DNA of 64,000 nt. Origin: Ignavibacteriota bacterium (GTDB lineage: Bacteria; Bacteroidota; Ignavibacteria; UBA10030; UBA6906). The position numbers and the translations under genes are program-made. Position 1 is the stretch's first letter; the number at the start of each line of letters is the position of its first letter. The notes under the pieces are model-generated. The model was not told the origin of the DNA. It saw only the letters and a program-made list of their open reading frames with translations, and made no database searches. Location: assembly GCA_963849385.1 (NCBI GenBank), contig CAWKHH010000009.1, positions 77,337 through 141,336 on the forward strand. The letters run 5' to 3'. Positions 11,144 through 64,000 of this stretch are shown piece after piece.

Positions 11144-12255
11144 TTACGCAGGGCTCCCCGGACCGGTGGCAAGGAGGAATCCTTTGATGAAATCGTCAAT
11201 GCCTCCATCCATCACCCCCTGAACGTTGCTTGTCTCAACATCCGTGCGGTGATCTTTCACCATGTTGTAAGGATGGAACACATAGGAGCGAATCTGGCTG
11301 CCCCACTCTATTTTCTTCTTCGTGCTTTCGATGGCGTCCCTTTTCGCCTCATCTTCCTCCTTACGCCGCTGATAGAGCTGCGACTTGAGCATTTTCATGG
11401 CCGACTCGCGGTTCTGAAACTGCGACCGTTGCTGCTGGCAGGCCACGATGATGCCGCTGGGAACGTGGGTGATACGGACGGCGGTTTCCACTTTGTTGAC
11501 GTTTTGCCCTCCCTTGCCGCCCGACCGGTACGTATCGATCTTGAGATCCACAGGGTTTATTTCGATTTCCACATCGTCTTCAATTTCGGGATAGACAAAG
11601 ACTGAAGCGAACGATGTATGCCGCCGCGCATTCGAGTCAAACGGAGAGATGCGCACAAGCCGATGGACGCCATTCTCTGCTTTGAGATAGCCGTACGCAA
11701 ACTTGCCTGTGACTTCCACCGTCGCGCTCTTGATGCCCGCGGAATCCCCTTCGAGACGATCCACCAGGGCGACAGAAAAGCCTTTCCGTTCACACCAGCG
11801 CAAATACATGCGGAGCAGCATCTCACCCCAATCCTGCGCCTCCGTCCCTCCGGCACCGGCATGAATCGTGAGAATTGCATTGCGCTCATCATCATCGCCG
11901 CTGAGCATGTTGCGGAACTCAAGCTCGGCAAGACCGGAACGCATAGCCTGCCAGTTCTGTGCCGATGTCCGTGGCCAGCGATGCATCGTTCGACTCTTCC
12001 GCGAGTTCAACGAAGGTGCTCGCGTCGCTGAGACGCTTCGCCAGCCCCTTCCATGCATCAACCCACTCCTTGCGCGAACTGATGTCCTGCATCACCTTCT
12101 GGGCTGTGACATTGTCATCCCAGAAATGCGGGGCCTGGCTCTTCTCCTGCAATTCCGCTATCGCTTTTTCCTTGGCATCAATGTCAAAGATACCCCCGGA
12201 GCGCCTTCAAGCGCTCGGTGAGTTCCTTGATCTCCGTTTTTTGATCTTCGAGCAT
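11144..12255 (-). CDS. prfB: peptide chain release factor 2, with the canonical programmed +1 frameshift plus one additional frame break
   Basis: N-terminal [23 protein letters not shown] is followed by the CTT TGA C shift site with an upstream AGGGGG. Downstream are the SPF and GGQ motifs ([20 protein letters not shown]). A second, unexpected +1 shift sits near 11945 between ORFs 11919-12152 and 11144-12061. Confidence 0.9.
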
Positions 12256-36528: not shown

Positions 36529-37952
36529 CTAGAACGTATTCACCACAAGGAGCTTAAGTTCAGTCATCTCTTCAATTGCGTAGCGAATGCCTTCCCGGCC
36601 AAAGCCTGAATCTTTTATGCCGCCGTACGGCATGTGATCTATGCGATACGTCGGGACGTCATTCACTACCACTCCTCCGACCTGCAATTCATTAAAGGCC
36701 TTGAACGTTTTGTGAAGATCCCGCGTGAAGAGTCCGGCCTGCAGCCCGAATTCGGATGCATTCACCCGGGCAAAGCATCGTCAAAGCTGTCATACGGCTC
36801 TATCGTCATGATCGGGGCAAAGGCTTCCAGGCAGCTTATCTTCATGCGGGGCTCGACATCCTGAAGGATGGCAGGAGTCAGGACGGCACCATCCCTTAGC
36901 CCACCGCAAACAAGCTTTGCACCGCCTTCTACAGCCTCCTTGATCCATGCTTCAATCTTCCTGGCTGCATCCCCGGTAATCATCGGGCCGACGATGGTAC
37001 GATCGTCGAACGGATCGCCTGCCACGAGATGTGTGGTAAGGGAGAGCAGGCGTTCCCTCGCGTGCTCCCAGATGGAATTGTGAATATACACCCGCTGGAC
37101 CGATATGCACGATTGTCCGGCATTGGCGAACGCCCCGTTGACGGTCTTGGGAAGAGCGGAATCAAGATCGGCATCGGGCTCGATTATGACACCTGCGTTT
37201 CCACCAAGTTCCAACGTGACCTTCTTCTTCCCCGCCTTTGATTTCAGGGGCCAGCCGACTGCTGGACTCCCGGTGAAGGTAACCAACTTAATGCGTTGAT
37301 CCTCAATTAGTTGAGAGCTTTCATCTCCAGTACAGGGAACGACATTGAATGCCCCTTGTGAGAGTGCAGTACCCGACACTACCTCGGCGAGCATGAGTGC
37401 CACCTGAGGCGAGTTGGAGGATGGTTTCACGACGATTGTATTTCCGGCGGCTATGGCGGGGGCGACCTTGTGCGCGACAAGATTCAAGGGAAAATTGAAG
37501 GGGGTTATTGCGCTGATTGGGCCAATGGGAAAGTGACGCACGAGGCCGAACCGACCTAGTGATTGGGCATTGAGGTCCAACGGGAGCACGTCGCCGCCGA
37601 TCCTTCGTGCTTCATCTGCAGCGATGGAGAATGTGAGGATGCTCCGTTCAACCTCAGACCGGGACAGGGAGATTGGTTTCCCTGTCTCCAGGGTTATCAT
37701 CTGCGCGAATTCCTCCCGTCGGGCCTCGATACACCGAACGATTTCGCTCAATATTCCGTGTCTCTCGAACCCGCTGGATCGGCGCGTCACTTCAAACGCA
37801 GCAGTGGCAGCACCAATCGCGTCGTCAATGTCCCGGGAGGATGCCTGGCACACGTCTCCTGCCGGGCGTCCGTCGAATGGGTTGCGGACGGCCCGAACCA
37901 CATCCGACCGCCGCCACTGACCGGCAACGTAGAATGGCTTCCCCATCCTCAA
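36529..37952 (-). CDS. NAD(P)-dependent aldehyde dehydrogenase family protein; frame break near 36765
   Basis: ALDH glutamate and cysteine regions (ELGGNAG; [10 protein letters not shown]). The C-terminal EEMTELK region is in ORF 36529-36765 in another frame. Overlaps the proS stop by 4 nt. Confidence 0.8.
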
Positions 37953-41261: not shown

Positions 41262-42623
41262 TCATTTCGATGCAGGCGGTTGGGCGGCCAGATTTGGTTT
41301 CCCTTGCGGGACGATACTCAGCACCACCTTGTGTTGGGCGAATGCCTTACGCGCATCGGCAAGGATTTCGGCGGGAGTGATCCCTTTGAACCTCTCCAGT
41401 TCTTTGTTGAGGTTCCCGGCATCTCCGCTCAGGGTGAACGCACTTGCGAGTCCGATGGTTTTCCCAAACACCGTTGCCTGTCGGTTGATGACGGAGGCCT
41501 CTTTCTGATTCAGAGGAAGTCTGCACCTCTTTTTCCGTCACGCCATTCTTCAGCATCTCATCAAGCACCTGCTGACACCGCCGTTTCGATCTCCGTCAGT
41601 GTCTTGCCCGGTTTGGCGGTCACGGTAATGGACAACTCTCCTGCGATTTCAGAACCACCCTGTGATGCGGTGACGGATTGTGCGATCTGCTTCTCGTACA
41701 CAAGGCTCTTATAGAGCCGCGAGTTCTTTCCCGCACCAAGAATATCGGTCATGACATCACGCACGGCATCCGTCCGCGTGAATCCACGGGCACTCGGCCA
41801 GGTAAGATAGAGCCGGGGAAGTTGTACTCTGTCTTCAAGAACGAGGCGGTTGTCTGCGCCGAGAGTGATCTCCTGCGGTGCCGGACGATCAAAGGCCTTC
41901 CCGCGCGGAATCGGACCGAAATACTTGGCGACCCATGTCTCTCACTTGCGCCGGGTCAATGTCCCCGGCGATCACGACGCACGCATTGTTCGGCGCATAG
42001 TACGTGGCAAAGAACGTCTTCACGTCTTCAAGTGAGGCGGCGCTCAGGTCGGCCATGGATCCGATCACCGGCCAGCTATAGGGGTGAGTGTCGGGATACA
42101 GGGCTTTGGCAATCGTCTCGTAAGACATTCCATATGGCACGTTTTCCGTCGTTTGCCGGCGTTCGTTCTTGACGACGTCCCGCTGGTTGTCGAGCTTTGT
42201 CTGGTCCATGGCAGGCAGGAGAAAACCCATTCTGTCGGATTCCAGGTAGATGGCAAGTTCAAGTCCGTTGCTGGGCAGAGTCTCGAAGTAGTTGGTGCGA
42301 TCTTCGCTCGTTGAGCCGTTGACATTTGCTCCGACCTGCTGGAGGAGCCTGAAGTGTTCCTCTTTCTGCACATGCTGGGATCCCTGGAACATCATATGTT
42401 CGAAGAGATGCGCGAAGCCGGTCTTGCCCTTCTTCTCGTTCTTCGAACCCACGTGATACATCATCATGATAGATGCTACAGGGGCCGCGTGATCCTCATG
42501 GAGGATCACCGTCAGGCCGTTGTCGAGTACGTATTGCTCGAACTTCACGTCATATTGGGCAAGCAGGATGCCGGGGAGCAACAGTAAAAGGGCGGCAAGC
42601 GTGCCCCGCAGTCGCCGGGTCAT
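41262..42623 (-). CDS. M16-family zinc peptidase (HXXEH, catalytic); reading frame interrupted at least 3 times
   Basis: AGGAGA RBS, signal peptide MTRRLRGTLAALLLLLPGILLA, and the HLFEHMMFQG zinc motif. Spread over ORFs 41889-42869, 41561-41764, 41347-41568 and 41262-41471. Confidence 0.7.
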
Positions 42624-42711
42624 AGCGAATTCTCCTGAACGTTTGTGTGGAATGGCAAGTACGATGCTGTCAATATCGGAAAATTCCGCACAACTGTCTA
42701 CACCCCTGAGT

Positions 42712-42780
42712 GTGACAAACAGATCTATGTGACAAACAGATCTATGACAGACAGATCTGACACACGAGTCTGACAAAGAC
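42712..42780. repeat. tandem direct repeat (GTGACAAACAGATCTAT x2 plus a degenerate third copy) in the divergent M16 / amidohydrolase promoter region
   Basis: Two exact 17 bp units, then GACAGACAGATCTGACACACGAGTCTGACAAAGAC. Multiple TGACA half-sites. Confidence 0.4.
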
Positions 42781-42867
42781 GTCCGGTCACCCCGGGCGGG
42801 GTCAGACCACGAAATGCCCCGAACCGCGTGAGATTGCGTCTCAGAAGAGATTTGCGCATGATGTATC

Positions 42868-44640
42868 ATGAAAGAGACCTACACGCGGTGCATCTTCCTC
42901 CTGGTGTGTTTGGCATCTACTCTTCCCGCTGTCGCCGGCCCGCCCACTTTCCCGTCAGTCTCCGATACTTCTGATAACCACCGGTTCGATATCGTCATCA
43001 GAAACGGCCGGGTCGTGGACCCTGAACGACGGCTGGATTCTGTGCTGAACATTGGAATAACCCGGGGAACAATCCTCGAAATTTCGGCTGATTCGTTGCG
43101 GGGACGCCAGATCATTGATGCAACCGGGTTGGTCGTTGCTCCGGGGTTCATTGACCTTCTCTCCTATGATCCGATCGAGCCAGGTGTATGGACCAAGATA
43201 GGAGATGGTGTCACCACAACGCTTGCCATGCATGGGGGAACGGCTGATCCTGATCGCTGGTATGCTGCTTATGCCAAACAAAGACCTCCTGTAAATTACG
43301 GCGCGTCATTCTTCTACAACGAAGCAAGGGTTCAGATCGTCAAGGACCGGTACCAGCCGGCATCGGCTGAGGCGCGGGGAATATTGCTGGCACGGGCAGA
43401 GAAAGCGCTCCGCCGCGGTGCTCTCGGTGCATCGTTTGCACTTGAGTATGTTCCCGGCACCGCCAGCGGGGAGATTCTCCCCGTCATGTCCCTTGCAGCA
43501 AAATACGCACTGCCCGTATTCTTCCATGCGCGGTATTCAGACATGGAAGAGCCCGGCACCAACCTTGACGGTCTTCGGGAAATCATCGGGTATGCACGCA
43601 CGACGCATGCGGCTGTACACATTGATCATATTAACAGCACAGGTGGCACGTTCTCCATGCCACGGTCGCTTGCCATGCTCGATTCTGCACGCTCGGAAGG
43701 GCTGGACATCACTGCGTGCATGTATCCCTACCCCTATTGGGCAACATACCTCAACAGTGCCCGGTTTGACGCCGGGTGGCAGCACCGGTTCCATATTTCG
43801 TATGGAGATCTCCAGCTCGGCGGATCATCAGCTCGACTCACGCGTGAAACATTCCTGGAGAATCGCCGGCTCGGCAAACTGGCAGTAGCGTATGCAATTC
43901 CTGACGAAGACAACCGGGCCGCACTCCGGTCGTCGTACGTGATGATCGGCAGTGATGCGATCCTCGAGCCCGGTTTCAACAATCACCCCCGGGCATCCGG
44001 AACATTCTCCCGCACGATAGCGGTGTACGTCCGCGAGCAAAAAACCATCTCGCTCATGGATGCTGTCGCGAAAATGACTATTCTGCCGGCCCATCGCATG
44101 GAGAGTGCAAGCGCGTCGATGAAGCGGAAAGGACGTCTGCAGGTGGGCGCCGATGCCGATGTGGTCGTGTTCGATGCGTCGCGCATTCGCGACCGGGCGA
44201 CAGTGGAGCACCCCGAGGCACCTTCCGAAGGGATTCAGTACGTTCTTGTTGGCGGGAAAGTCGTTCTTGACGGATCGGGACTGCACAAGAACGTGCGGAA
44301 TGGATCGGCAATCAGGGGGAAGATCATGAATAGCACAAGAAACCCCGCCCGGCATTTCACCGAGCGGGGTTTCGCATTAATCCGGAGCCCCGAAAGCTCG
44401 CGCTACCAGGCTTCACCGGAGGCTCCTATGTTTGTTGTCAAGATAGGATCACCTCCCTTCCCCAGGGCACTTAGAACGCGACAGAAGCTTCCCTGTAAAA
44501 CTTCCGGCGCAGCGTGGACTGCACCGGAAATGTACAAAGAGACGGACAAAAAGCAAAGGGTTTTTCTCAACCGGGCATCGTCACGCAGCACAATGAGAAA
44601 GAAGGCCCGGCAATGTGCCGGGCCTTCTCGTGAACGGTGA
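42868..44640 (+). CDS. amidohydrolase-family protein (N-acyl-D-amino-acid deacylase/D-aminoacylase-like); 3' end probably earlier (about 44325)
   Basis: Signal peptide, metal-dependent hydrolase core (RNGRVVDP...GFIDLLSY...) and a beta-sandwich C-domain. The last ~100 aa are low-complexity and read through a terminator-like hairpin. Confidence 0.65.
   Translation: MKETYTRCIFLLVCLASTLPAVAGPPTFPSVSDTSDNHRFDIVIRNGRVVDPERRLDSVLNIGITRGTILEISADSLRGRQIIDATGLVVAPGFIDLLSYDPIEPGVWTKIGDGVTTTLAMHGGTADPDRWYAAYAKQRPPVNYGASFFYNEARVQIVKDRYQPASAEARGILLARAEKALRRGALGASFALEYVPGTASGEILPVMSLAAKYALPVFFHARYSDMEEPGTNLDGLREIIGYARTTHAAVHIDHINSTGGTFSMPRSLAMLDSARSEGLDITACMYPYPYWATYLNSARFDAGWQHRFHISYGDLQLGGSSARLTRETFLENRRLGKLAVAYAIPDEDNRAALRSSYVMIGSDAILEPGFNNHPRASGTFSRTIAVYVREQKTISLMDAVAKMTILPAHRMESASASMKRKGRLQVGADADVVVFDASRIRDRATVEHPEAPSEGIQYVLVGGKVVLDGSGLHKNVRNGSAIRGKIMNSTRNPARHFTERGFALIRSPESSRYQASPEAPMFVVKIGSPPFPRALRTRQKLPCKTSGAAWTAPEMYKETDKKQRVFLNRASSRSTMRKKARQCAGPSRER
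44341..44371. terminator. terminator-like hairpin AACCCCGC(N15)GCGGGGTT
   Basis: 8 bp GC-rich stem followed by TTCGCATT, lying between convergent genes. Confidence 0.3.
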
Positions 44641-45301: not shown

Positions 45302-46915
45302 TCAGGCGCCCGGTCTCCTGTCGGGACGTGGTCTTCGCCTCTGTCCTCCCCGCCCCGGAGCGCGCGAGGATCTCTTCCGGGGCTCGACGGTTCCTTCAGC
45401 AAGGGGAGGCAATGGCGTGAGCAGGTCTGCGTCCGGATGTATCGCCGGAAGATCACGACCAATAAACTTTTCGATGTCCGGAAGTTCGTACGCTTCCGTT
45501 TCTGTCGCAAAGCTGACCGATGTTCCGCTCGCGCCCGCCCGGCCGGTACGCCCGATCCGATGGAGATAGTCTTCTGGATCCATGGGCAATGAGTAGTTGA
45601 CAACGTGACTCACGCCTTCAATGTGCAAACCGCGCGCGGCCACGTCGGTAGCCACGAGCACTTTGAGCTTCCCGCCCCGGAACGCCTCCAACGTTTTGAC
45701 CCGCTGGTCCTGTGACACGTCTCCTGACAGAAGTCCCACTTTGATCCCACGTGCTGCGAGCCGATCCTTAAGGAACTGCGTCTCGTCGCGCCGATTGGCA
45801 AAGACCATGACACGTTCCAGATTGAGCCTGGTGATGATATTGTAAAGCAGCGTAAATTTTGCATCGTCTGTGGTAATGTAGACCAACTGGTCGATTGAGG
45901 CGAGCGTGATATCGCGGGGTGGGGTTACATCAACCTGCACCGCGTCGCGGGTCCATGCAGCGGCGAGGCGGTGCACTTCCGGCGTGAGGGTCGCGCTGAA
46001 AAACATCGTCTGCCGCTTTCCCTTCATCGGGGTGCTCTCTATGATCCGGCGCACATCGGGGATGAATCCCATATCCAGCATACGGTCCGCCTCATCGATC
46101 ACAAGAATCTCGACGCTGCTCAAGTCAATGTTGCCTTTGCGCTTGAAGTCCAGGAGACGCCCCGGAGTCGCGGCAACGATGTCAACGAATCCGTCTTTCA
46201 GCAGGCGTTCTTGTTTCGAGTATTCCATTCCACCGAACACCGCCATCGTAATACAGTCCGAATACTTGCCGAGGGCTTTCGCGTCCTTCTCAATCTGGAG
46301 CACGAGTTCGCGAGTGGGGGCAAGGATAAGGGCTCGTGGCGTTCCGCTCTTTCGAGGTTTCGGCAAGGGCTTGCGGCTGAAGTGTGTCAGGATGGTGATA
46401 AGGAATGCCGCAGTCTTTCCTGTTCCCGTTTGCGCGCGGCCCGATGCATCGGCCCCTGAGAGCGTCACGTTGAGGATGCCCGCCTGAATGGGTGTGCAAT
46501 ACAGAAAGCCGAGGTCATGGATTGCATGCATTACATCGAGAGAGAGTCCGAGGTCATGAAAGCGGACCTTTCCCTCCTCGACCGGGACGGCAAATTCCGA
46601 AGGATCCCATGCGACCTTCGGGCGCCGGGCTTCAGGCGTCGGTTCCGGCCTGGGACGACGTGTTCTCGGTGGACGGGTCTGTCGATCCTGCTGCGGCTGG
46701 CGGGGCCCGCGCTGGTCACCCCGACCGCCCGGAGAAGGAGTTTCACGTCGGCCCCCCGGAGAAGGAGTTTCACGCCGGCCCCCTGAAGAAGGAGCTTCAC
46801 GCCGGCCTCCGGGAGAAGGCGTTTCACGTCTCACACGCGTTCTCTGCTCACGCACTTGTGTGTGAGGGTGTTGAGGGGGAATCACGGGAGTGCCGGTGGA
46901 CGCTGCCTGGAGCAC
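45302..46915 (-). CDS. DEAD-box ATP-dependent RNA helicase with Arg/Pro-rich repetitive N-terminal extension
   Basis: Q motif, AQTGTGKT, PTRELV, DEAD (VIDEADRM), SAT and HRIGRTGR motifs. There is no start codon between the repeats and the Q motif, so the extension is coding. Confidence 0.8.
   Translation of the reverse strand: MLQAASTGTPVIPPQHPHTQVREQRTRVRRETPSPGGRREAPSSGGRRETPSPGGRRETPSPGGRGDQRGPRQPQQDRQTRPPRTRRPRPEPTPEARRPKVAWDPSEFAVPVEEGKVRFHDLGLSLDVMHAIHDLGFLYCTPIQAGILNVTLSGADASGRAQTGTGKTAAFLITILTHFSRKPLPKPRKSGTPRALILAPTRELVLQIEKDAKALGKYSDCITMAVFGGMEYSKQERLLKDGFVDIVAATPGRLLDFKRKGNIDLSSVEILVIDEADRMLDMGFIPDVRRIIESTPMKGKRQTMFFSATLTPEVHRLAAAWTRDAVQVDVTPPRDITLASIDQLVYITTDDAKFTLLYNIITRLNLERVMVFANRRDETQFLKDRLAARGIKVGLLSGDVSQDQRVKTLEAFRGGKLKVLVATDVAARGLHIEGVSHVVNYSLPMDPEDYLHRIGRTGRAGASGTSVSFATETEAYELPDIEKFIGRDLPAIHPDADLLTPLPPLAEGTVEPRKRSSRAPGRGGQRRRPRPDRRPGA
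46724..46831. repeat. four tandem 27 bp repeats (encode RRETPSPGG x4) inside the helicase 5' coding region
   Basis: GGAGAAGGAGTTTCACG(Y)CGGCCCC units. The period is a multiple of 3 and in frame. Confidence 0.5.
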
Positions 46916-51129: not shown

Positions 51130-53284
51130 ATGAATGAAAGCCTGGATCTCGAAGTCCAGGAGTCGACGACCGACTCCCGTATCACTCGGCGCGATTTTCT
51201 CAAGACGACAGGCAGCGGCATCTTCCTCTACTTCACCATCAGAGATCCGGAGTTGCTTCAGCAAGAGGTCGGGGGTCGAAGACCATCACCCGGACTGCCG
51301 ACTGATTTCAACGCGTTTCTGAAGATTGGAGACGACGGACGTGTTACCTGCTTTACCGGCAAAATCGAGATGGGCCAGGGTCCGATCACCTCTCTCGCGC
51401 AGGAGCTGGCAGATGAACTCGATGTTCCTCTTGATGCCGTCGATATGGTCATGGGAGATACCGACCTTTGCCCGTGGGACATGGGGACGTTCGGCTCGAT
51501 GACAACGCGTATCTTCGGCCCCGCCCTTCGGACCGCAGGCGCGCAGGCAAGACAGGTCTTGCTGGAACTGGCTTCTGAGAATCTGAAAATACCTGTTTCA
51601 CATCTGGCTGTCGAAAACGGAGTCGTAGTCGACTCAGGCAGCACTCTGCGTCGCATCTCCTACGGCCAGCTGACCCAGGGAAAGAGAATCGAACGTCACC
51701 TCACACAGCCGGCAGTCACTAAGAAGCCTTCGGAGTTCAAAGTGATGGGGAAACCGGAACTCCGTAGAGACGCACGGGTGAAGGTGACCGGCAGCGCGAA
51801 ATACGCCGGAGATATCCAGCTACCCGGGATGCTCTATGCAAGACTGCTTCGGCCTCCCGCACATGGCGCGAAACTCCTTGGTGCCGACCTCTCCGAAGCA
51901 AAGAAGGTGCAGGGAGTTCAGATCATCCAGGAGGGAGATTTCATCGCCGTCCTCCATAGATATCCGGATGTCGCTGAGACTGCGCTGTAAGAATTAAGGC
52001 CACATTCGACAAACCCAAATCAGGTATTAATGATGCAACGATTTTCGATCATCTGCTGAAAGTCGCCCCAGAAGGCCGGATGGTGGCACAGGGAGGAAAT
52101 CTTCAGGAAGGCGAGCGCGCCGCAACGGCCACCATTGAAGAGACCTATCTCGACGGCTACAAAGCGCACTCACCGATCGAGCCCCACACGGCTGTGGTGA
52201 AGATCGAAGGGAACAAGGCAACCGTCTGGGCGTCTACACAAACGCCGTTTGGTGCGAAAGATGAAGTCGCGAAGGAGCTTGGCTTCCGTCCGGAAAATGT
52301 GAGAGTCATCACCCCCTTTGTCGGCGGCGGATTTGGTGGCAAGTCAAGGAATCTGCAGGTTGTTGAAGCCGCCCGCTGTGCGAAACTCAGCGGAAAGCCG
52401 GTTCAGGTGGCCTGGTCCAGAAAGGAGGAGTTTTTCTTCGATTCGTTCCGGCCGGCGGCAGTCATCAAGGTGCGATCAGGAATGACGGCGGAGGGAAGGA
52501 TAACTTTCTGGGATTATCATGTCTACTTTGCGGGCGAACGCGGGTCCCAGCAATTCTACGATATCCCCCACCACCGTACTGTTGCACACAATTCAAGCTG
52601 GGTGGGAGCAGCGGGTTCCCACCCGTTTGCCACAGGGCCCTGGCGTGCACCGGGAAACAACACGAACACGTTTGGCCGCGAATGCCACATTGACGCGTTG
52701 GCAGCTCGATCCGGTATCGATCCCGTCGGATTCCGGCTCCGTAACCTGTCGGACGCAAAAATGAAACGCGTCCTGCAGGCTGCTGCGGACAAATTTGGAT
52801 GGAAACCGGCGAAATCACCCAGCGCCAGAGGATACGGTGTGGCGTGTGGGATTGACGCGGGAACGTACGTGGCTGCCATCGCTGAAGTGGCCGTCGACAA
52901 AGCCACTGGACGGGTGAAGACCAAGAGGGTCGTTTGTGCTCAGGATATGGGTCTGGTGATCAACCCGGAAGGAGCCACTATCCAGATGGAAGGCTGCATT
53001 ACGATGGGCCTTGGCTATGCCTTAAGGAGGACATCCATTTCAAAGACGGAGAGATTCTGGACGTCAATTTTGACACGTATGAAATCCCGAGGTTTTCCTG
53101 GCTGCCGAAGATAGAGACCGTTATCCTTGACAGCAAGGAAGACCCGGCCCAGGGCGGGGGCGAGCCGGCAATCGTGGTGATGGGAGCGGTCGTTGGAAAT
53201 GCGATCTATGATGCCGTCGGCGTACGATTGCATCAGATGCCGATGAACCCTGAGAGAATCACAGAAGCACTGAAGCGGGGTTAG
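51130..53284 (+). CDS. molybdopterin-binding large subunit (IorB/CoxL-like) with Tat signal; reading frame interrupted twice
   Basis: RRDFLK twin-arginine motif and an MoCo-binding domain. Spread over ORFs 51130-51990, 52080-53114 and 52934-53284. Translationally coupled to the 2Fe-2S subunit. Confidence 0.8.
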
Positions 53285-57531: not shown

Positions 57532-58294
57532 TTGGGTTTGGTGAGTGAACGGGAAACGTGACTGAAATCTAGGACAGAAAGGGGTTATTCGCAAGCAAAA
57601 CAAAAGTTAAGGATGACAGTGAGTTTCGTTCGTGATAGCTCTGGACATATCGATTCAGGGCTGTACCTCTTCAATATTCCATCCGCTCCAACATAGCGAA
57701 TCCGGACCTCTGTCGCTACTTTGAAATGTGTATCAACCAACCGGACAGAAGCCCAGACCGAGGGGGGAGATTGACCAGGTGGGTGTGGTGAACGGGCCGC
57801 ATCACTATTACTACCGAAGGGTCGTGTAAGAGCTACTGAAGAGTTGATTGCCGCAATGTTGGCAGTGTGGATCGAGGGAAATCTATTTCATCGGTCGAAC
57901 AAACGCGTCTCTTCGGACAGAACTTGCGCGCTCTTCCCTCTTGACAAACCCAGAACTCTCCCCCACGCACCTTCTCATGGAACAGAATATCGCACTTAAC
58001 TCATGAACCGCGATGGGAGTATGCCTCGGATGGAATATTGACGACGGACAACTCCCCTCTCTTTGACTCGAGATACCCCGACAGGTACATCATCGGCCGG
58101 TTTGGCCAAGGAGACAGGCATACCCGGAGAACTCTCAAAGATGACATGTGCACGTCTTGGACACGTTCGAAAGACGTGTCAACTCCAGGGACGGGATCAA
58201 ATACTCAATAGGCCAGTCGCTCACCCAATTCGCGTTTGACTATTCTCTTGTTCTGAGTTATTTTGTCGGCGTGAACCCACTTGAAGGAACTGTC

Positions 58295-60576
58295 ATGGCT
58301 GCCCTCGTTGGTCAGATGGTCTCTCACTACAGGATCCTCGCACACCTCGGCAGCGGCGGCATGGGCGTCGTCTACAAGGCCGAGGACACCCGGCTGAAGC
58401 GAACCATTGCGCTGAAGTTCCTCCCTCCCGAGTTCACGCAAGATCAGACCGCACGGGAACGCCTTTTCCACGAAGCCCAGGCAGCCTCCGCATTGGAGCA
58501 TACCAACATATGCTCGGTCCATGAGCTCGGAGAGCACGACGGCCGCACGTTCCTCGTCATGGGGTTCTACGAAGGCGAGACTCTCAGGAAAAGATCGATC
58601 ACGGGCCGATGCCGATTGACGCTGTCCTGGATATCGCGATCCAGGTTGCCCGGGGGCTCTCCCGTGCACACGAAGCGGGCATCACCCATCGCGACATCAA
58701 GCCGGCGAATCTCATCGTGACCACCCGGGGTGAGGTAAAGATCCTGGATTTCGGCCTGGCGAAGCTCGCCGGACGGACAATGCTCACCAGGAGCGGATCG
58801 ACGCTCGGCACAGCGGCCTACATGTCCCCGGAGCAGGCGCGGGGAGAGAGCGTTGATCATCGGACGGACATCTGGTCGCTGGGGGTGGTGCTCTACGAGA
58901 TGATCGCGGGCCGTCGGCCGTTCGCCAGCGAATACGAGCAGGCGCTGGTCTATCAGATTCTCAACACAGAGCCGGAGCCGTTGACGAGGGTCCGTCCCGA
59001 GACGCTCCCCGGCCTGGCACAGATCGTCGGACATGCCCTGGCAAAGCAGCCGGCAGAGCGTTATCAGACCATGGAGGAGTTCCGGGACGATCTCGCGGCC
59101 GTCGCCGAGGGCCTCAAACCCCTCAAAGCCAAGCCTCTGGTCGACCATCCCGAGAAGTCCATCGCCGTGCTACCCTTTATCAACGACAGCCCCGACCAGG
59201 AGAATACCTATTTCATCAACGGGGTGATGGAGGAGATTCTGAACAACCTCCAGAAGATCAAGGCGCTCAGGGTCATCTCCCGCACGTCGGTCGAACAATA
59301 TCGGGAAAGGAAAAAAACCGTCCGCGAGATCGCCGAGGAGCTGGGCGTGAACTACATCGTGGAGGGCAGCGGTCAGAAATACGGCAACGTCTTCCGCCTG
59401 AGGGCCCAGCTGATCATGGCCGAGCATGAGTCACATCTCTGGGGGGAGTCTTTCCAGCAAAAGATCACCGATGTTGAGGATATCTTTAACATCCAGATCA
59501 GAATCGCCAAATCCATAGCCGAGGAGCTCCGAGCGGTCATATCCCCTGAAGAGAAAAAGCTCATTGAGAAGATACCGGTCGCGGACCTTGCCGTTTATGA
59601 CGAATATCTGAAGGCCCGCTCTTACGTTTATGATGGTCGAAGGGAAGCTTTGAACAAAGCCCTGAAGTTCCTGACCAGCGGCGTCGCGAAAAACCCCGGC
59701 TGGGCGCCTCTCTATGCGGGTCTGGCGGAAGCCTGGCTGTGGATACAACAGAACGCGTACGAACAGCCGTCCGTCACCGCTCCCCAGATCATCGAGAACC
59801 TGAACAAGGCGCTGGCATTGGACCCGGATCTTGCTGAAGCTCATTATCTCAGCGCCCTGATCGCACATCTCGTGGATTGGGACTGGGAGAAGAGCGAAAA
59901 GGAGTTCTTGAAGGCCCTGGCCATCAACCCCAACGATGCCCTTTCCAGGGGACTCTATGCGCAGCTCTTGTTGATCCTGCACAGGAAAGATGAGGCTTTG
60001 GCCCAGAATGAGCTGGCGCTGAGCCTTGACCCGCTGAATCCCATGATGAAGCTCTTCAATATCGGAACGCTGTTGCAGGCCGGTGAATATCAGACCAGCT
60101 TGTCTCTCGCGGAAGAAGCTTTGGCCGACGATCCGGACAATTTCAACCTCAATCAGATGATCGAGATCGCCGCTTACAGGTTAAAGCAGTACGACAAAGT
60201 CCTCCGAGCGGTCCGATATGTTCTTCCCTTTCCCCTCGAGGAAGATGCTTATAAGGACATCGAGAGGATCTACAGCGAATCGGGGATCGTTACGGCGTAT
60301 GAAAAGATCGTGGAACGTCTTGAGAAATACGCTGAAAGCCAGCCCGTCGGCTTTTGGGATATGGCCTTCAGGTATCTTGTGGCGGATCAACCCGATAAAT
60401 CCATGGATTGGGTCGAGAAGGGATTCGAGATGCACGACCCGCTCATGACCTACATCACCACACCAGCGCAATATTTCGATCGACTGTTCGGAAATCCGAG
60501 ATTCATGGCCATATGTGAGAAGATGAACCTTTCGCTTCCAAGATACCTCCCCCCCCGAGGCGTTCAAGGATCTTAG
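58295..60576 (+). CDS. serine/threonine protein kinase with C-terminal TPR-repeat domain; frame break near 58595
   Basis: [11 protein letters not shown] glycine loop, IALK lysine, [12 protein letters not shown] and SPE motifs, then TPR-like repeats. ORFs 58148-58720 and 58609-60576 are in adjacent frames. Confidence 0.8.
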
Positions 60577-60792
60577 GGAGAACGAAACCGCGAAAGTGGG
60601 ACCACATCGCAACGACCGCCGATGGGCTAGACCGGATCCACAACATTGCCTGCCCAACGGACGGTTTTCCACATGAGTGCAGAGTGATGAGCCTCTTGTA
60701 ATCTTGAACATCGTGTTTCCCCCGCAATGGCTCCTCCGACGGTTGTTCGGTCAGCTCCATAGCCGTGTTAAGCGCCCGCACCCTTCCTCACG

Positions 60793-61020
60793 TCAAGGTA
60801 TATCAGATAATCCGTAGTCGGCGGCACAACGTCCAATTGACGCAATAACGTCCCCAACTGCCCATCCATTATTCCGGTCAACAAACCATAGTCCGTGAAA
60901 ATAACCCAATTGAACATCTCGAACGAGCTTCCATTCGCCTTGTGGTGGATTCGGTTCCGTGGCATTCTTGCATCCAATACTCATTATCAACAGACAGAAA
61001 GTCAATATGCTCTTTGTCAT
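60793..61020 (-). CDS. small hypothetical lipoprotein (lower-GC patch)
   Basis: ATG with lipobox LLIMSIGC. 75 aa. Confidence 0.35.
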   Translation of the reverse strand: MTKSILTFCLLIMSIGCKNATEPNPPQGEWKLVRDVQLGYFHGLWFVDRNNGWAVGDVIASIGRCAADYGLSDIP

Positions 61021-61150
61021 AAGGTCTTTTCCAGAACCCAGAATGTTGACAACGCACGGCGCATTCTGCAGCACTCGGTCCACCTGCGCCCCTCACACCA
61101 TTGTTTAAATCCACGCGGCATCAGGTACAGGCGGTTGGTAGGCGGACAAC

Positions 61151-61642
61151 CTATTGATGACGAACTGGAATTTTCCGCTCGGCCGTCCAAGCAAAGGGAC
61201 CCAAGCTACTTGGCTGCCCAGTGGCAGGATTCCAGAATCCTCCACTCAAGGCACACTGAATCACAACACTGTCCAGATGTGCAAGACTGCTATTTGTCCA
61301 GAAACCCTGTGATAAAACATACGACCTGCCAACCGAACCCGGATATAGATAATAGTAAAAAACACTAGTAGACATAAATCCAATCGGGACGAAGTCCACT
61401 TCATCCAACGTACCCGGAAGCCCCTCGAAATGATACTTAACAGTGCAAGGGAAATACGCCCAAAGACTGTCGTTGCCCGGATTCACCTTGACAGTACATT
61501 CCACTGCGAACACATCGACTACGAACTTCCCTGACCCGGGTTGGGGTGCAGTCGTAGCGTCTGGTGTCATTACCAAACCAACATCCTTGCACCCAACAAT
61601 CGCTGATGCGAGCAATATTGCGAAGCATGCGTATCGGATCAA
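61151..61642 (-). CDS. hypothetical lipoprotein (lower-GC patch)
   Basis: TTG start preceded by an AAAGGAG RBS, lipobox LLASAIVGC, and 163 aa with 4 Cys. Confidence 0.45.
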   Translation of the reverse strand: MIRYACFAILLASAIVGCKDVGLVMTPDATTAPQPGSGKFVVDVFAVECTVKVNPGNDSLWAYFPCTVKYHFEGLPGTLDEVDFVPIGFMSTSVFYYYLYPGSVGRSYVLSQGFWTNSSLAHLDSVVIQCALSGGFWNPATGQPSSLGPFAWTAERKIPVRHQ

Positions 61643-61672
61643 GGTTCCATTCTCCTTTCGAAGGGTGGCGCC

Positions 61673-61696
61673 CTAACGCGGCTCACCTGCGCCGCC
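61673..61696 (-). promoter_or_regulatory. conserved upstream motif (copy A); minus-strand reading GGCGGCGCAGGTGAGCCGCGTTAG
   Basis: Nearly identical to a motif at 63346-63370 and related to 62560-62575. Each lies 31-59 nt upstream of a minus-strand start codon. Confidence 0.35.
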
Positions 61697-61876
61697 AACT
61701 CAATTGTGGAGAGTGACAACAAACAACTATTCCCGAACTGCCAAAATGTGAGCCACGCATGCCGAGCCAGTTCCATCGGCATTCATCGCCTTAATCCAAC
61801 CCCAGCTCAGATATATGTCAGTAGTGTCTTTTGCGACACATTCCATTGCGAGTACTGCTCAACCGGGCAACCGCCA

Positions 61877-62530
61877 CTACTTCAGCTGTGCTCTCAGCAT
61901 GTAAGACGTACCGGTGTAATTGGTGCCCGCGTTTGAATATGAGGTGAAACGGGTCACGCCGCGCAAAGATTCAAGTTGGACTGTGTCATTGGCGCTAATG
62001 GTCTGTGTGGCGTCGAGAAACTGCAACCGCAAGAGACTGGACGTTGAAGTCAAGTATCTCATGACCACCACCGAGTCCTTGATTGGAACGCTGTCCTCCC
62101 GAAGAGGGAACCGCCAGACACGCGATGTCACCGAGAGCGAATGCAACCCAACCGTACTCTCGCTCAGCGTCAATGTTAGTGAAGTATCAATCCAATAGGG
62201 CGCTGGGCTTCCTGCGAACGTTGACGACACACGACGAAACAAGTGTGATTTTTCCACAACAGTCCATTGCACTCTGCCATAGGAGTCCGTAGTGGAATCG
62301 ATAACGCTGTATTCCACGGTCCCAGAATCAGAGGTGGTCGATGACTGACCCATTTGGCGCCGGTATTCTACGGAATACTGATAGTCGTAAACGTACTTGA
62401 GACCAGCGTGAAGGGGGAGGCCATCATATCTCGATTCAGCCATCCCAACTGAATTGTCACTATTGGTACAGGATAGGCTGACCCCTAAGGAGATCAAGAG
62501 TATCACGGTTGAAACCGGGTTGATTCGCAC
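61877..62530 (-). CDS. hypothetical Ser/Thr/Tyr-rich lipoprotein (lower-GC patch)
   Basis: Lipobox LGVSLSC and 217 aa. No family recognised. Confidence 0.45.
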   Translation of the reverse strand: MRINPVSTVILLISLGVSLSCTNSDNSVGMAESRYDGLPLHAGLKYVYDYQYSVEYRRQMGQSSTTSDSGTVEYSVIDSTTDSYGRVQWTVVEKSHLFRRVSSTFAGSPAPYWIDTSLTLTLSESTVGLHSLSVTSRVWRFPLREDSVPIKDSVVVMRYLTSTSSLLRLQFLDATQTISANDTVQLESLRGVTRFTSYSNAGTNYTGTSYMLRAQLK

Positions 62531-62642
62531 ATGCCCCTAAGTGTATGATCGAGCCATTGCGAGCCGCCTAACGGTTGAGTTCAGCGGCGCACCTGCAGGG
62601 TGCGTCCGCTTCAACGAGTTGTTAGCGCGCATGCTCCTCACA

Positions 62643-63311
62643 TCACCACATATTATTCGCCATCTTTTTGCGGCGGGCCAACTCTTTTTCGCTCGGCTCG
62701 ATACTCGCGAACGAACCGGGCCGGATATCGCCGATAGGCACATAGGTACTCATCACAACGCCAGTTTTTGAAACCTTCGAAGCCACGAGCCGCAGTGCAC
62801 ATGGTCTTGCACTATTTTCAAACAGTCGCTTTCCACGACCAAGAACGACGGGGTACGCCCATACGGTGTATTCGTCAATGAGCGATGCGGCTTGTAGCGT
62901 CTGAATCAGATTTCCGCTGCCAATGATTTGAAGCTCTTGTCCGGGCTGACCCTTGAGCGCGGTTATGGCTGAAACGATGTCACCGCCAAGTACCGACGAA
63001 TTGTTCCACTGCAATGACTTCAACGTGCGGGACGCCACATGCTTTTTTGCCGCGTTGAGCGTCCTCGCAATCTCATTGTCCTCTGATTGGTAAGGCCAAT
63101 ACGCCTCGAATATTTCATAGGTTTTACGACCCAGTACAAGCTCTCTATCTTTACCATCGAAACCTGCCGCAGAAAGATCCACCTCTGCGTCCATGAAAGC
63201 GAATAGCCAACCACCTAACGTGAAATTGCCGGTTGGATCTTCGGTCGGTCCTCCTGGTGCCTGCATGACACCGTCCAGTGATGTAAATGTGGACGCAACG
63301 AGTTTCCTCAT
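62643..63311 (-). CDS. dihydrofolate reductase-family protein (RibD C-terminal domain-like)
   Basis: LDGVMQAPGGP...GRKTYE...GSGNLIQTL pattern of the RibD_C/DHFR-like family. Good RBS (TAGGAGAG). Confidence 0.7.
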   Translation of the reverse strand: MRKLVASTFTSLDGVMQAPGGPTEDPTGNFTLGGWLFAFMDAEVDLSAAGFDGKDRELVLGRKTYEIFEAYWPYQSEDNEIARTLNAAKKHVASRTLKSLQWNNSSVLGGDIVSAITALKGQPGQELQIIGSGNLIQTLQAASLIDEYTVWAYPVVLGRGKRLFENSARPCALRLVASKVSKTGVVMSTYVPIGDIRPGSFASIEPSEKELARRKKMANNMW

Positions 63312-63345
63312 ATAACTCTCCTACGATTGAATGTCATTGTGCGCG

Positions 63346-63370
63346 CTAACGATCGGCTCGCCTGCGCCGC
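63346..63370 (-). promoter_or_regulatory. conserved upstream motif (copy B); minus-strand reading GCGGCGCAGGCGAGCCGATCGTTAG
   Basis: See copy A. Lies 35-59 nt upstream of the DHFR-family gene ATG. Confidence 0.35.
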
Positions 63371-63473
63371 AAATAGCGCAAAAGCCACTCACCATCGAGA
63401 GGCCTCTCATTTCATCCCCCGATGCCTGTAATTAATGTAAGGTGGCGGTTTGGCATTGTCAATTGACGTGTCA

Positions 63474-64000
63474 TCACAGCACGAAGACGTAAAGTACTTT
63501 GAGACTAAACAGCGCATAAACCCTATCGTCAGTATTTGACAAACACACTAAGGAGGGTTCAAGACATATGTTCCCGGAAATCCTTGCGACAGCCCCGGCA
63601 CCGAGCATATAGATCCAATAGTGCCTGGCTCGCGGTTCAATCTGAAATCCGTCGTTCGATTCCCTATTCAACGATATCCTGCCAATCCGTTCAAGGACAT
63701 ATCCGCCTCCTATCTGGAAGAATGGCTTGATCCGGTTTGTATCGGACGGCTCGGTGAAGCGAATACCCATATCCAAACGAAGATGATGGATGCCATCGCC
63801 AGATGCGGAAGGTTGTCCTGATGTTCCGTTTGCGCTCATCGTAATGTATTTCCAGTCGTCATCGCGCAGGGGAAACAGATTGTATGTGATACTTGGGACA
63901 ATCCTAAGCCAATTTGCCACCACAATTCCTCCGACTACACCCGCGCTAAGACCAACCGCCCAATAACCGTCCAGGAAGAATGGATCGCCTAATGATATTG
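63474..64000 (-). CDS. outer-membrane beta-barrel (porin-like) protein, partial; the 5' end lies beyond the window
   Basis: Open frame continues to the window edge. Alternating amphipathic strands with a C-terminal LYVFVL. Confidence 0.4.
   Translation of the reverse strand, partial: ISLGDPFFLDGYWAVGLSAGVVGGIVVANWLRIVPSITYNLFPLRDDDWKYITMSANGTSGQPSASGDGIHHLRLDMGIRFTEPSDTNRIKPFFQIGGGYVLERIGRISLNRESNDGFQIEPRARHYWIYMLGAGAVARISGNICLEPSLVCLSNTDDRVYALFSLKVLYVFVL

What the first reader, a model, noticed from the sequence alone, without database searches (positions are those of the whole stretch)
60600..63473. Lower-GC patch with three unrelated small lipoproteins and a shared upstream sequence motif
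GC drops from about 60% to about 45-48% from the end of the kinase gene to the window end. The patch carries three consecutive minus-strand lipoprotein genes with lipoboxes MSIGC, ASAIVGC and GVSLSC and no recognisable domains. These are followed by a DHFR-family gene and a porin-like gene. Two of the genes are preceded, 31-59 nt before the start codon, by an almost identical about 25 nt element (TTGGCGGCGCAGGTGAGCCGCGTTAGGG and TTTGCGGCGCAGGCGAGCCGATCGTTAGCG on the coding strand). The third has a related CCGTTAGGCGG at the same spacing, plus a perfect 15 bp palindrome GCACCTGCAGGGTGC. A shared element at fixed distance suggests one dedicated regulator or alternative sigma factor controlling a horizontally acquired envelope module that sits next to a Ser/Thr kinase. 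Its function is unknown.
Basis: seen in the sequence. Interest (0 to 1): 0.55.

Follow-up and report, generated by a model that had tools for sequence, protein, structure and literature searches.

The report
Decaying integron gene-cassette array
The "shared upstream motif" is the right-hand half of integron attC recombination sites, so this patch is the far end of an array of captured gene cassettes, most of which have lost a working site. It is a known kind of element and not a regulon with its own regulator.

Summary
The repeat is real, but it is not a promoter or an operator. GCGGCGCAGG(T/C)GAGCCG…GTTAG(G/C)(G/C) is the L'–R' arm of an attC family. In soil and freshwater MAGs and metagenome contigs, this family forms classic integron cassette arrays. 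One array has 14 sites in 8 kb, and 29 of 31 cassettes carry the circular-cassette signature.

In one Bacteroidetes MAG, such an array begins next to fragments of an integron integrase (TIGR02249, E 1e-22 and 4e-13).

The window holds four co-oriented attC-derived sites on the minus strand, one between each pair of ORFs:
- **Site B (62562-62630):** structurally intact. It has RYYYAAC/GTTRRRY ends, an extrahelical T, and a bottom-strand fold z of -4.06.
- **Sites A, C and D:** decayed remnants.

The RibD_C cassette (62572-63349) shows a perfect 11-nt match between its first bases and the R'' end of its own attC.

The 33-42 nt spacing to start codons is ordinary cassette geometry (median 31.5 nt in related arrays). 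The GC dip is real but modest (51.2% against 56.5%).

Lpp2 belongs to a small lipoprotein family that is repeatedly cassette-borne. Lpp3 is an ORFan.

No integrase is visible in the window, because the array runs off its end. The verdict is a new member of a known kind, of modest interest.

The parts
63474..64000 (-).
   Evidence: The reading frame is open from 63998 down to the stop at 63474. No Pfam match, even at E 5.
63344..63454 (-). attC remnant A. R'' GCCAAAC 63448-63454; central stretch GGCATCGGGGG 63416-63426; L' GCGGCGCAGGCGAGCCG 63354-63370; R' GTTAGCG 63344-63350. The 5' arm has decayed.
   Evidence: L' matches the family consensus at 16 of 17 bases. The central stretch matches the consensus. 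The bottom strand does not fold better than shuffles, z -0.08. The full attC model does not find it.
62572..63349 (-). RibD_C gene cassette (778 nt): from TTAGCGCGCA… after the crossover G of site A to the G of site B's GTTAGGC. The ORF is 62643-63311.
   Evidence: The first bases GTTAGCGCGCA (63350-63340) are the exact reverse complement of TGCGCGCTAAC (62621-62631), the R'' end of the cassette's own attC. Related arrays show the same signature in 29 of 31 cassettes. RibD_C domain, E 4.5e-16.
62562..62630 (-). attC site B, structurally intact. R'' CGCTAAC; L'' GCGG-A-CGCACC; 5-nt apex; L' GGTGCGCCGC; R' GTTAGGC (62566-62572).
   Evidence: Best hit of attC model R1 in the whole window, 22 bits, E 0.0064. 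Bottom-strand fold -21.8 kcal/mol, z -4.06, 0 of 200 shuffles as good, with one extrahelical T and a 4x4 internal loop. Same subfamily as L010:3775-3841 and L005:7691-7761.
61877..62530 (-). Cassette ORF Lpp3 (217 aa, putative lipoprotein, ORFan)
   Evidence: The only database match is itself. No Pfam match. Its start codon is 42 nt after the G of site B's R'.
61671..61776 (-). attC remnant C. L' GCGGCGCAGGTGAGCCGC 61678-61695 runs straight into R' GTTAGGG 61671-61677 with no spacer. The central part matches a full attC elsewhere. The 5' arm is partly deleted.
   Evidence: L' matches the consensus at 18 of 18 bases. GGGAATAGTTGT and CACAATTGAGTT match L002:7710-7864. Fold z -0.70. The full model does not find it. 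L003:3727 has the same spacer-less junction.
61151..61642 (-). Cassette ORF Lpp2 (163 aa lipoprotein, Ig-like beta-sandwich)
   Evidence: 42 related clusters among 1.84 billion representatives. The lipobox Cys is nearly invariant. AlphaFold pLDDT 89, all-beta fold, with only generic beta-sandwich matches. Homologues are flanked by attC sites in L020, L019 and L021.
61047..61146 (-). attC remnant D. R'' GCCTACC; L'' CCGCCTGTACCTGATGCCGC 61115-61134; L' GGGGCGCAGGTGGACCG 61076-61092. R' is degenerate, possibly GTTGTCA 61047-61053.
   Evidence: Second-best hit of model R1 in the window, 17.2 bits, E 0.072. It resembles L002:7077-7163 and L003:2994-3080, including the central stretch. It does not fold, z +1.94.
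60793..61020 (-). Last ORF, Lpp1 (75 aa, lipobox-like N-terminus, probably a truncated gene). The array ends between here and the kinase stop at 60576.
   Evidence: No significant family match. No convincing attC between 60577 and 60792.

Best explanation
Positions 60.8-64.0 kb are the distal end of an integron gene-cassette array read on the minus strand. Seen from the window alone, it is a cluster of attC sites with no integrase in view. Each ORF is a separately captured cassette, and the repeats between ORFs are attC recombination sites.

In a working integron, the bottom strand of an attC folds into an imperfect hairpin. This hairpin has R''/R' and L''/L' boxes, extrahelical bases and a variable apex. 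The integron integrase recognises it and cuts between G and TT of GTTRRRY. Cassettes are excised as circles and reinserted, and they are transcribed from a promoter at the head of the array.

It sits 33-42 nt before each start codon because cassettes carry only a short leader after the crossover point.

In this window only site B still has the full structure. Sites A, C and D have lost one arm or their core, so most of these cassettes are probably fixed in place.

- **Shown:** the identity of the repeat, the cassette boundaries, and the link of the family to an integrase elsewhere.
- **Inferred:** that an integrase exists or once existed beyond 64000, that sites A, C and D are inactive, and how the genes are expressed.
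For: 1. **Spread of the motif.** The pattern GGCGCAGGYGAGCCG-N0-4-CGTTAG hit 10 genome loci in Acidobacteriota/Terriglobia, Bacteroidota, Ignavibacteriota and Cellvibrionaceae MAGs. I estimate about 3 hits by chance.
2. **Full element in related arrays.** In L006, L009, L013 and L015 the motif is the 3' arm of a ~135-nt element: CCTAAC-CA-GCGGCTGCACCTGACGCCGC…GCGGCGCAGGTGAGCCGC-GATCC-GTTAGGC. It repeats every 0.45-1.1 kb on one strand between small co-oriented ORFs. The L''/L' stem has two extrahelical positions. The bottom strand folds with z -3.5 to -7.1.
3. **Circular-cassette signature.** The 8 nt after GTT at a cassette's start match the flank of that cassette's own R'' at 8 of 8 positions in 29 of 31 cases. 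Other pairings average 5.2 of 8. The window's RibD_C cassette matches at 11 of 11.
4. **Model search of the window.** A covariance model of the family was run over the whole window on both strands with filters off. Its only hits below E 0.1 are site B (E 0.0064) and site D (E 0.072), both on the minus strand inside the finding.
5. **Site B.** It has RYYYAAC/GTTRRRY ends, an internal loop, an extrahelical T on the R''-L'' arm, and z -4.06.
6. **Integrase link.** Integrase fragments lie divergently at the head of an array of this family that also carries the closest Lpp2 homologue (54% identity). They match TIGR02249 at E 1.1e-22 and 4e-13, and PF13495 at E 9e-12.
7. **Lpp2 homologues are cassettes.** They are bracketed by attC sites in L020 and followed by one in L019.
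8. **Foreign composition and content.** GC and GC3 are lower than in the rest of the window, and the ORFs are ORFan or rare. Both are typical of cassettes.
9. **Leader length.** The distance from R' to the next start codon in related arrays has a median of 31.5 nt (IQR 17-42.5, n=36). In the window it is 33-42 nt.
Against: - No integron integrase is seen in the window. The sequence beyond 64000, where one would be expected, could not be retrieved.
- Only one of the four sites is structurally intact. Sites A and C fail the full attC model, and sites A, C and D do not fold better than shuffled sequence.
- The model's E-values are rough, and 0.0064 and 0.072 are not strong on their own.
- No attC was found after the last ORF.
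- The only integrase found for this family is a fragmentary pseudogene in another genome.
- IntegronFinder's own attC model could not be run.
Confidence: 0.9

Rival explanations
1. The shared block is the binding site of a dedicated transcription factor, or the promoter of an alternative (ECF-type) sigma factor, and it co-regulates an acquired envelope module.
For: The block lies 33-42 nt upstream of four consecutive start codons. CGTT resembles the -10 element of many ECF promoters (my own knowledge, not tested here). Three of the products have lipoprotein-like N-termini.
Against: - The conserved bases fill what would be the promoter spacer, and the gap to GTTAG varies from 0 to 5 nt.
- The same sequence recurs in several phyla in front of unrelated genes, always as one arm of a long palindrome ending in GTTRRRY.
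- It shows the cassette-circle signature.
- It does not occur elsewhere in the 64 kb.
- No regulator or sigma-factor gene lies next to it.
- Sigma-70-like promoter matches in the patch are at chance level: 4 found against 3.6 expected.
Confidence: 0.03
2. A family of repetitive extragenic palindromes (REP/BIME-like) or a miniature transposable element, unrelated to integrons, that happens to sit between these genes.
For: The elements are intergenic imperfect palindromes of 60-150 nt, present in many copies in several genomes.
Against: - All copies in an array share one orientation and strictly alternate with single ORFs.
- The ends are the integron core sites RYYYAAC and GTTRRRY.
- The flank of each R'' matches the start of its own cassette, which only excision and insertion at G|TT explains.
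- An integron integrase remnant heads one array.
- There are no target-site duplications and no copies elsewhere in the window.
Confidence: 0.04
3. A structured RNA leader (a riboswitch-like or attenuator element) shared by the 5' untranslated regions of these genes.
For: The block lies in the putative 5' leader, and small hairpins can be drawn in sites A and C.
Against: - No Rfam family matches.
- Sites A and C do not fold better than shuffles.
- The conserved structure of intact family members spans the whole spacer and starts right after the previous stop codon.
- The pairing partner of the motif is the upstream arm, which is missing at A and C.
Confidence: 0.02

Closest known systems
Sedentary chromosomal integron cassette arrays, such as the Vibrio cholerae superintegron with its VCR-type attC sites and the Xanthomonas integrons with decayed attC sites and inactivated intI
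   Same: - Co-oriented single-ORF cassettes, mostly of unknown function, separated by attC sites that resemble each other within an array.
- R''/L''/L'/R' architecture with extrahelical bases on the R''-L'' arm.
- Crossover at G|TT.
- Atypical composition.
- Decay of sites, and of the integrase in the related Bacteroidetes array.
   Different: - The host is an uncultured soil or freshwater bacterium.
- The attC family is different: its L boxes are GCGGCTGCACCTGACGCCGC and GCGGCGCAGGTGAGCCGC.
- Only the last ~3.4 kb of the array is visible, and three of its four sites are no longer intact.
- No integrase is in view.
CALIN, a cluster of attC sites lacking an integron integrase (Cury et al. 2016, PMC4889954)
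   Same: Two or more attC-type sites less than 4 kb apart on one strand, no integrase within the sequence available, and cassettes unrelated to resistance genes.
   Different: The window ends inside the array, so absence of an integrase cannot be established. Only two sites reach model significance, and the model used was built here rather than being IntegronFinder's.
The soil/freshwater clade of attC sites, and taxon-specific attC models including one for Acidobacteria (Ghaly et al. 2021, PMC8352920)
   Same: That paper reports that attC sites cluster by environment rather than by host phylogeny. Here one attC family occurs in MAGs assigned to Terriglobia, Bacteroidota and Ignavibacteriota.
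   Different: I could not compare this family with the published models, so whether it equals one of them is unknown.

Membership tests
Integron attC recombination site | Terminal inverted core sites: R'' RYYYAAC at the 5' end and R' GTTRRRY at the 3' end of the top strand | tested here: met
   - Site B has CGCTAAC … GTTAGGC.
- Family members have (C/G)CCTAAC … GTTAGGC.
- Sites A and C keep R' (GTTAGCG, GTTAGGG). Site A keeps R'' GCCAAAC.
- Site D has a degenerate R'' GCCTACC and a doubtful R'.
Integron attC recombination site | An imperfect palindrome (L''/L' boxes) that folds as a single strand, with extrahelical bases on the R''-L'' arm and an unpaired spacer between the R and L boxes | tested here: met
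   Met for site B: z -4.06, one extrahelical T and a 4x4 internal loop. Met for intact relatives: two extrahelical positions, z -3.5 and -7.1. Not met for sites A, C and D, with z -0.08, -0.70 and +1.94. I read these three as decayed sites.
Integron attC recombination site | Each site lies just downstream of a single ORF, in a co-oriented array with spacing of about 0.4-2 kb | tested here: met
   In the window, the G of R' lies at 63350, 62572, 61677 and possibly 61053, giving spacings of 778, 895 and 624 nt. All sites are on the minus strand, with one ORF between each pair.
Integron attC recombination site | Cassette signature: the bases after the crossover point at the start of a cassette are complementary to the R'' end of that cassette's own attC | tested here: met
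   The RibD_C cassette matches at 11 of 11. Related arrays match at 8 of 8 in 29 of 31 cassettes, against a mean of 5.2 in other pairings. For the Lpp3 and Lpp2 cassettes the result is inconclusive: 6/8 (D vs Lpp3 start) and 5/8 (D vs Lpp2 start), judged by eye, both near the 5.2 background.
Integron attC recombination site | Detection by the curated attC covariance model of IntegronFinder | not testable with these tools
   That model is not in Rfam (one search found nothing) and is not available here. A family model built here was used instead.
Integron attC recombination site | Recombined by an integron integrase | not testable with these tools
   This needs an experiment.
Complete integron | An integron integrase gene (a tyrosine recombinase with the IntI-specific insertion) next to the array, usually divergent, with attI and a cassette promoter | tested here: inconclusive
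   No IntI-like sequence in the window by tblastn or among 10 mid-size ORFs. The head of the array lies beyond 64000 and could not be fetched. In a related array (L022), integrase fragments match TIGR02249 at E 1e-22 and 4e-13. They are divergent from the array and lie at its head.
CALIN (Cury et al. 2016) | At least two attC sites less than 4 kb apart on one strand, with no integron integrase nearby | tested here: inconclusive
   Two model hits lie 1.4 kb apart on one strand, with two half-sites besides. Absence of an integrase cannot be judged because the window ends inside the array.
Alternative-sigma promoter or operator of a dedicated regulator | Conserved -35 and -10 elements at fixed spacing (or an operator dyad), confined to the regulon of one organism | tested here: not met
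   The conserved block is continuous, and its distance to GTTAG varies from 0 to 5 nt. The same sequence occurs in several phyla in front of unrelated genes. Promoter-like matches are at chance level.
REP / MITE-type dispersed repeat | Copies dispersed around the genome in either orientation, independent of integrases | tested here: not met
   There are no copies in the other 60 kb of the window. Within arrays, all copies share one orientation and alternate with ORFs.

The most novel reading that the evidence does not exclude
One attC family with nearly identical L boxes is shared by chromosomal arrays in at least three phyla (Terriglobia, Bacteroidota, Ignavibacteriota; two of these sit on 3-3.8 Mb contigs, so mis-binning is unlikely). 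Its sites are typically inactivated by loss of a single arm while the other arm stays almost perfect. The most novel reading not excluded is that this one-arm loss is a selected way of fixing useful cassettes in place. The retained L'-R' arm, which always lies about 35-40 nt before the start codon, might then be reused as an expression signal for domesticated cassettes.
Probability: 0.08. Interest if true: 0.55.

Novelty: new member of a known kind. Interest (0 to 1): 0.3.

Why it matters
It replaces a speculative 'regulon with an unknown regulator' by a concrete and well-understood mechanism, integron cassette capture. It gives base-level boundaries for at least one cassette.

It adds an example of a chromosomal cassette array in an uncultured soil or freshwater lineage, where integrons are poorly charted. 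It also points to an attC family shared across phyla, and shows how such arrays decay at their far end.

It flags Lpp2 as a member of a small, repeatedly mobilised lipoprotein family of unknown function. None of this overturns current knowledge of integrons.

Tried and rejected
**Attempts that gave nothing**
- An Rfam scan of 60400-64000 at E ≤ 10 gave only a chance viral hit.
- The source contig beyond 64000 could not be fetched. Exact-protein look-ups failed for RibD_C, for a 394-aa neighbour and for P0001. Lpp3 was found only on a 1.8-kb Logan contig with no DNA held. A 27-mer from the window end had no match in metagenome contigs.
- No integrase was found in loci L001-L020 or in L021.
- The attC consensus has no match in PLSDB plasmids.
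I got round this with a homology search.

**Ideas considered and dropped**
- I took ATTAGGC at 63987-63993 for the R' of a further attC. I rejected this because it lies inside the open reading frame of the cut ORF.
- I looked for a final attC after Lpp1 (GAACAAC 60742-60748 … GTTGGGC 60652-60658). It does not fold (z +0.3 to +1.1), so I do not claim it.
- I tried to decide from R'' flanks whether Lpp3 and Lpp2 now form one fused cassette. The matches, 6/8 for site D's R'' flank against the Lpp3 cassette start and 5/8 against the Lpp2 cassette start, do not discriminate.
- The fold search for Lpp2 gave only generic beta-sandwich matches with TM around 0.4, so no function can be inferred.
- The RibD_C cassette here and the one in the related array are only 25% identical, so they are not the same cassette.
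Full report
**1. The observation**

The minus strand of 60.8-64.0 kb carries five co-oriented ORFs:
- a 3' ORF fragment that is open to the end of the window (63474-64000)
- a RibD_C-domain gene (62643-63311, E 4.5e-16)
- three ORFs with lipoprotein-like N-termini: Lpp3 (61877-62530), Lpp2 (61151-61642) and Lpp1 (60793-61020, only 75 aa)

The five products are unrelated to each other.

GC is 0.512 over 60577-64000. Same-size windows elsewhere give 0.565 ± 0.013, with a minimum of 0.530. GC3 is 0.39-0.60, against 0.60-0.73 in flanking genes. The dip is therefore real, but about 5 points rather than the 12-15 reported.

The motif GCGGCGCAGGYGAGCCG occurs exactly twice and once with 3 mismatches, and nowhere else in 64 kb. 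GTTAG[GC][GC] occurs on the minus strand only three times in the whole window. Each occurrence lies 35-42 nt before a start codon.

**2. What the motif is**

The three elements end in GTTAGCG, GTTAGGC and GTTAGGG, which fit the integron core site GTTRRRY. The spacer before Lpp3 (62562-62630) is a complete imperfect palindrome: CGCTAAC … GCGG-A-CGCACC, a 5-nt apex, GGTGCGCCGC … GTTAGGC.

Its bottom strand folds at -21.8 kcal/mol (z -4.06, 0 of 200 shuffles as stable).

**3. Evidence from other genomes**

An exact-pattern scan of one genome per species found the motif in 10 loci. The MAGs are assigned to Acidobacteriota/Terriglobia, Bacteroidota, Ignavibacteriota and Cellvibrionaceae. I estimate about 3 hits by chance.

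In L006 (an 8-kb contig of a Bacteroidota MAG), the motif is the 3' arm of a ~135-nt element that occurs 14 times on one strand. The element reads (G/C)CCTAAC-CA-GCGGCTGCACCTGACGCCGC, then about 70 nt, then GCGGCGCAGGTGAGCCGC-GATCC-GTTAGGC. L009 shows the same, as do metagenome contigs L011-L016. L015 has at least 16 sites in 8.9 kb between small co-oriented ORFs.

The two L boxes pair, with two extrahelical positions on the R''-L'' arm. That is the arm where canonical attC sites carry theirs (established knowledge of attC structure; scheme in Cury et al. 2016, PMC4889954).

The most telling result is the cassette-circle signature. The 8 nt after GTT at the start of a cassette match the flank of that cassette's own R'' at 8 of 8 positions in 29 of 31 cassettes. 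All other pairings average 5.2 of 8. Only excision and insertion at G|TT produces this pattern.

**4. The same tests in the window**

The RibD_C cassette begins GTTAGCGCGCA (63350-63340). The R'' end of the attC that closes it reads TGCGCGCTAAC (62621-62631). This is an 11-of-11 reverse-complement match, which sets the cassette at 62572-63349.

I built a covariance model from 26 family members and ran it over the whole window, both strands, filters off. It gave only two hits below E 0.1: site B (22 bits, E 0.0064) and site D (61060-61146, 17.2 bits, E 0.072). Both are on the minus strand between ORFs.

- **Site B** belongs to a short subfamily that shares arrays with the long one (L010:3775-3841, L005:7691-7761).
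- **Site D** resembles L002:7077-7163 and L003:2994-3080, including the central stretch. Its L boxes are mismatched, its R' is doubtful, and it does not fold (z +1.94).
- **Sites A and C** keep the L'-R' arm at 16/17 and 18/18 identity to the consensus, and stretches of the central region. Their R''-L'' arms are decayed or partly deleted, and they do not fold (z -0.08 and -0.70).

The window therefore holds one structurally intact attC and three remnants.

**5. Link to an integrase**

The closest Lpp2 homologue (54% identity) lies on contig_55325 of a Bacteroidetes MAG. It sits in an array of more than 25 co-oriented small genes, including Glyoxalase, DUF1697, ADH, GHL6, RibD_C and Cupin cassettes. 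The attC sites near the head of that array are intact, and those further along are decayed.

Walking upstream reached the head of the array. On the opposite strand, just before the first cassettes, lie two fragments that match the integron-integrase model TIGR02249:
- E 1.1e-22, profile positions 41-126
- E 4e-13, profile positions 164-221, which on my reading includes the IntI-specific insertion with its …ERKYP… stretch

The first fragment also matches PF13495 at E 9e-12. The gene is frameshifted and lacks the catalytic C-terminal third.

This attC family is thus tied to an integron integrase, here a degraded one. Other Lpp2 homologues are bracketed by attC sites (L020) or followed by one (L019).

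**6. The 'fixed distance'**

In related arrays, the distance from the G of R' to the next start codon has a median of 31.5 nt (IQR 17-42.5, n=36). In the window it is 39, 42, 35 and possibly 33 nt. The spacing is ordinary cassette geometry and needs no regulator.

**7. Mechanism and status**

*Shown:*
- The repeats are attC sites or their remnants.
- The ORFs are cassettes.
- The patch is compositionally foreign.

*Inferred from established integron biology:*
- The cassettes were captured one at a time by an IntI acting on the folded bottom strand.
- They are read from a promoter at the head of the array.
- With three of four sites decayed, most are now immobile.

The array ends between 60793 and the stop codon of the convergent kinase gene at 60576. 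No final attC was found there.

The head of the array lies beyond 64000 and could not be retrieved. No IntI-like sequence exists in the window itself. From the window alone I cannot say whether this is the tail of a complete integron, of one with a dead integrase, or a CALIN.

**8. The cargo**

- **Lpp3** is an ORFan: it matches only itself among 5.8 billion clusters.
- **Lpp2** belongs to a small family of 42 clusters among 1.84 billion representatives. The lipobox Cys is nearly invariant, and the predicted fold is an Ig-like beta-sandwich (pLDDT 89). Only generic structural neighbours were found, so no function can be inferred.
- **Lpp1** looks like a gene fragment.
- **The 'porin-like' ORF** has no family match.

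Nothing ties these genes together functionally, or to the kinase.

**9. Rivals**

- **Promoter or operator.** The conserved block is continuous and its distance to GTTAG varies. The same sequence occurs across phyla in front of unrelated genes. Promoter-like matches are at chance level.
- **REP or MITE-type repeat.** Copies have a single orientation and strictly alternate with ORFs. They have the integron core sites, the cassette-circle signature and the integrase link.
- **RNA leader.** No Rfam match, and sites A and C show no fold signal.

**10. Comparison and novelty**

This is an integron cassette array of the kind described for sedentary chromosomal integrons and CALINs (PMC4889954, PMC9024848). 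It sits in an uncultured soil or freshwater bacterium.

Finding one attC family in several phyla agrees with the report that attC sites cluster by environment rather than by host (PMC8352920).

One point remains unexplained. These sites seem to die by losing one arm while the other stays nearly perfect, and either arm can be the one lost.

The verdict is a new member of a known kind, of modest interest.

Noticed in passing
window 58148-60576 (+), break near 58590-58610: The Ser/Thr kinase gene is split between two reading frames. The N-lobe (Pkinase profile 1-88) is in one frame and the rest (profile 100-256, plus TPR repeats) in another. The break lies close to a short A-run. It is either a pseudogene or a homopolymer error of a long-read assembly.
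   Followed up: partly
L022 8556-9142 (-), contig_55325 of Bacteroidetes MAG MFD09964.bin.3.183: A degraded integron integrase: two fragments match TIGR02249 (E 1e-22 and 4e-13). The gene is frameshifted and lacks the catalytic C-terminal third. It lies at the head of an array of more than 25 cassettes whose distal attC sites are also decayed. Gene callers placed spurious ORFs on the opposite strand.
   Followed up: yes
L002, L003, L005, L010 (genome loci): The same attC family, with nearly identical L boxes, occurs in MAGs assigned to Bacteroidota, Ignavibacteriota and Terriglobia. Two of these sit on contigs of 3.0 and 3.75 Mb. This suggests cassette exchange across phyla in soil.
   Followed up: partly
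window 61671-61695 and L003 ~3705-3727: Both loci show the same unusual junction, in which the L' box runs straight into GTTAGG without the usual 4-5 nt spacer (GAGCCGC|GTTAGG). In both cases the 5' arm of the attC is missing.
   Followed up: partly
window 61151-61642 (-) and P0002-P0043: Lpp2 defines a small family of ~160-aa lipoproteins. Conserved motifs are FVVDS, YHFE..PGT and DSV…G.FW. The predicted fold is an Ig-like beta-sandwich, and the family is repeatedly found as an integron cassette. Function unknown.
   Followed up: yes
window 46716-46830: Four tandem copies of a 27-nt unit (79-100% identity to the reference copy) lie within the span of the long minus-strand ORF 45302-46915. This probably encodes a 9-residue peptide repeat.
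   Followed up: no
window 11144-12061 (-): A release-factor ORF (PCRF + RF-1 domains) matches the PCRF profile only from position 71. This would fit the usual programmed +1 frameshift of prfB, with the N-terminal part in another frame.
   Followed up: no
window 57662-57685 and 58027-58050: A 24-nt inverted repeat (88% complementary) whose arms are 341 nt apart, in the spacer between the agmatinase-like gene and the kinase gene.
   Followed up: no
window 36762-37952, 41889-42869, 52080-53114: Several ORFs cover only part of their Pfam domains (Aldedh profile 9-386 of 461; Peptidase_M16_C 3-41 of 181; MoCoBD_2 201-255 of 283). Together with the split kinase, this suggests scattered frameshifts, possibly assembly errors.
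   Followed up: no
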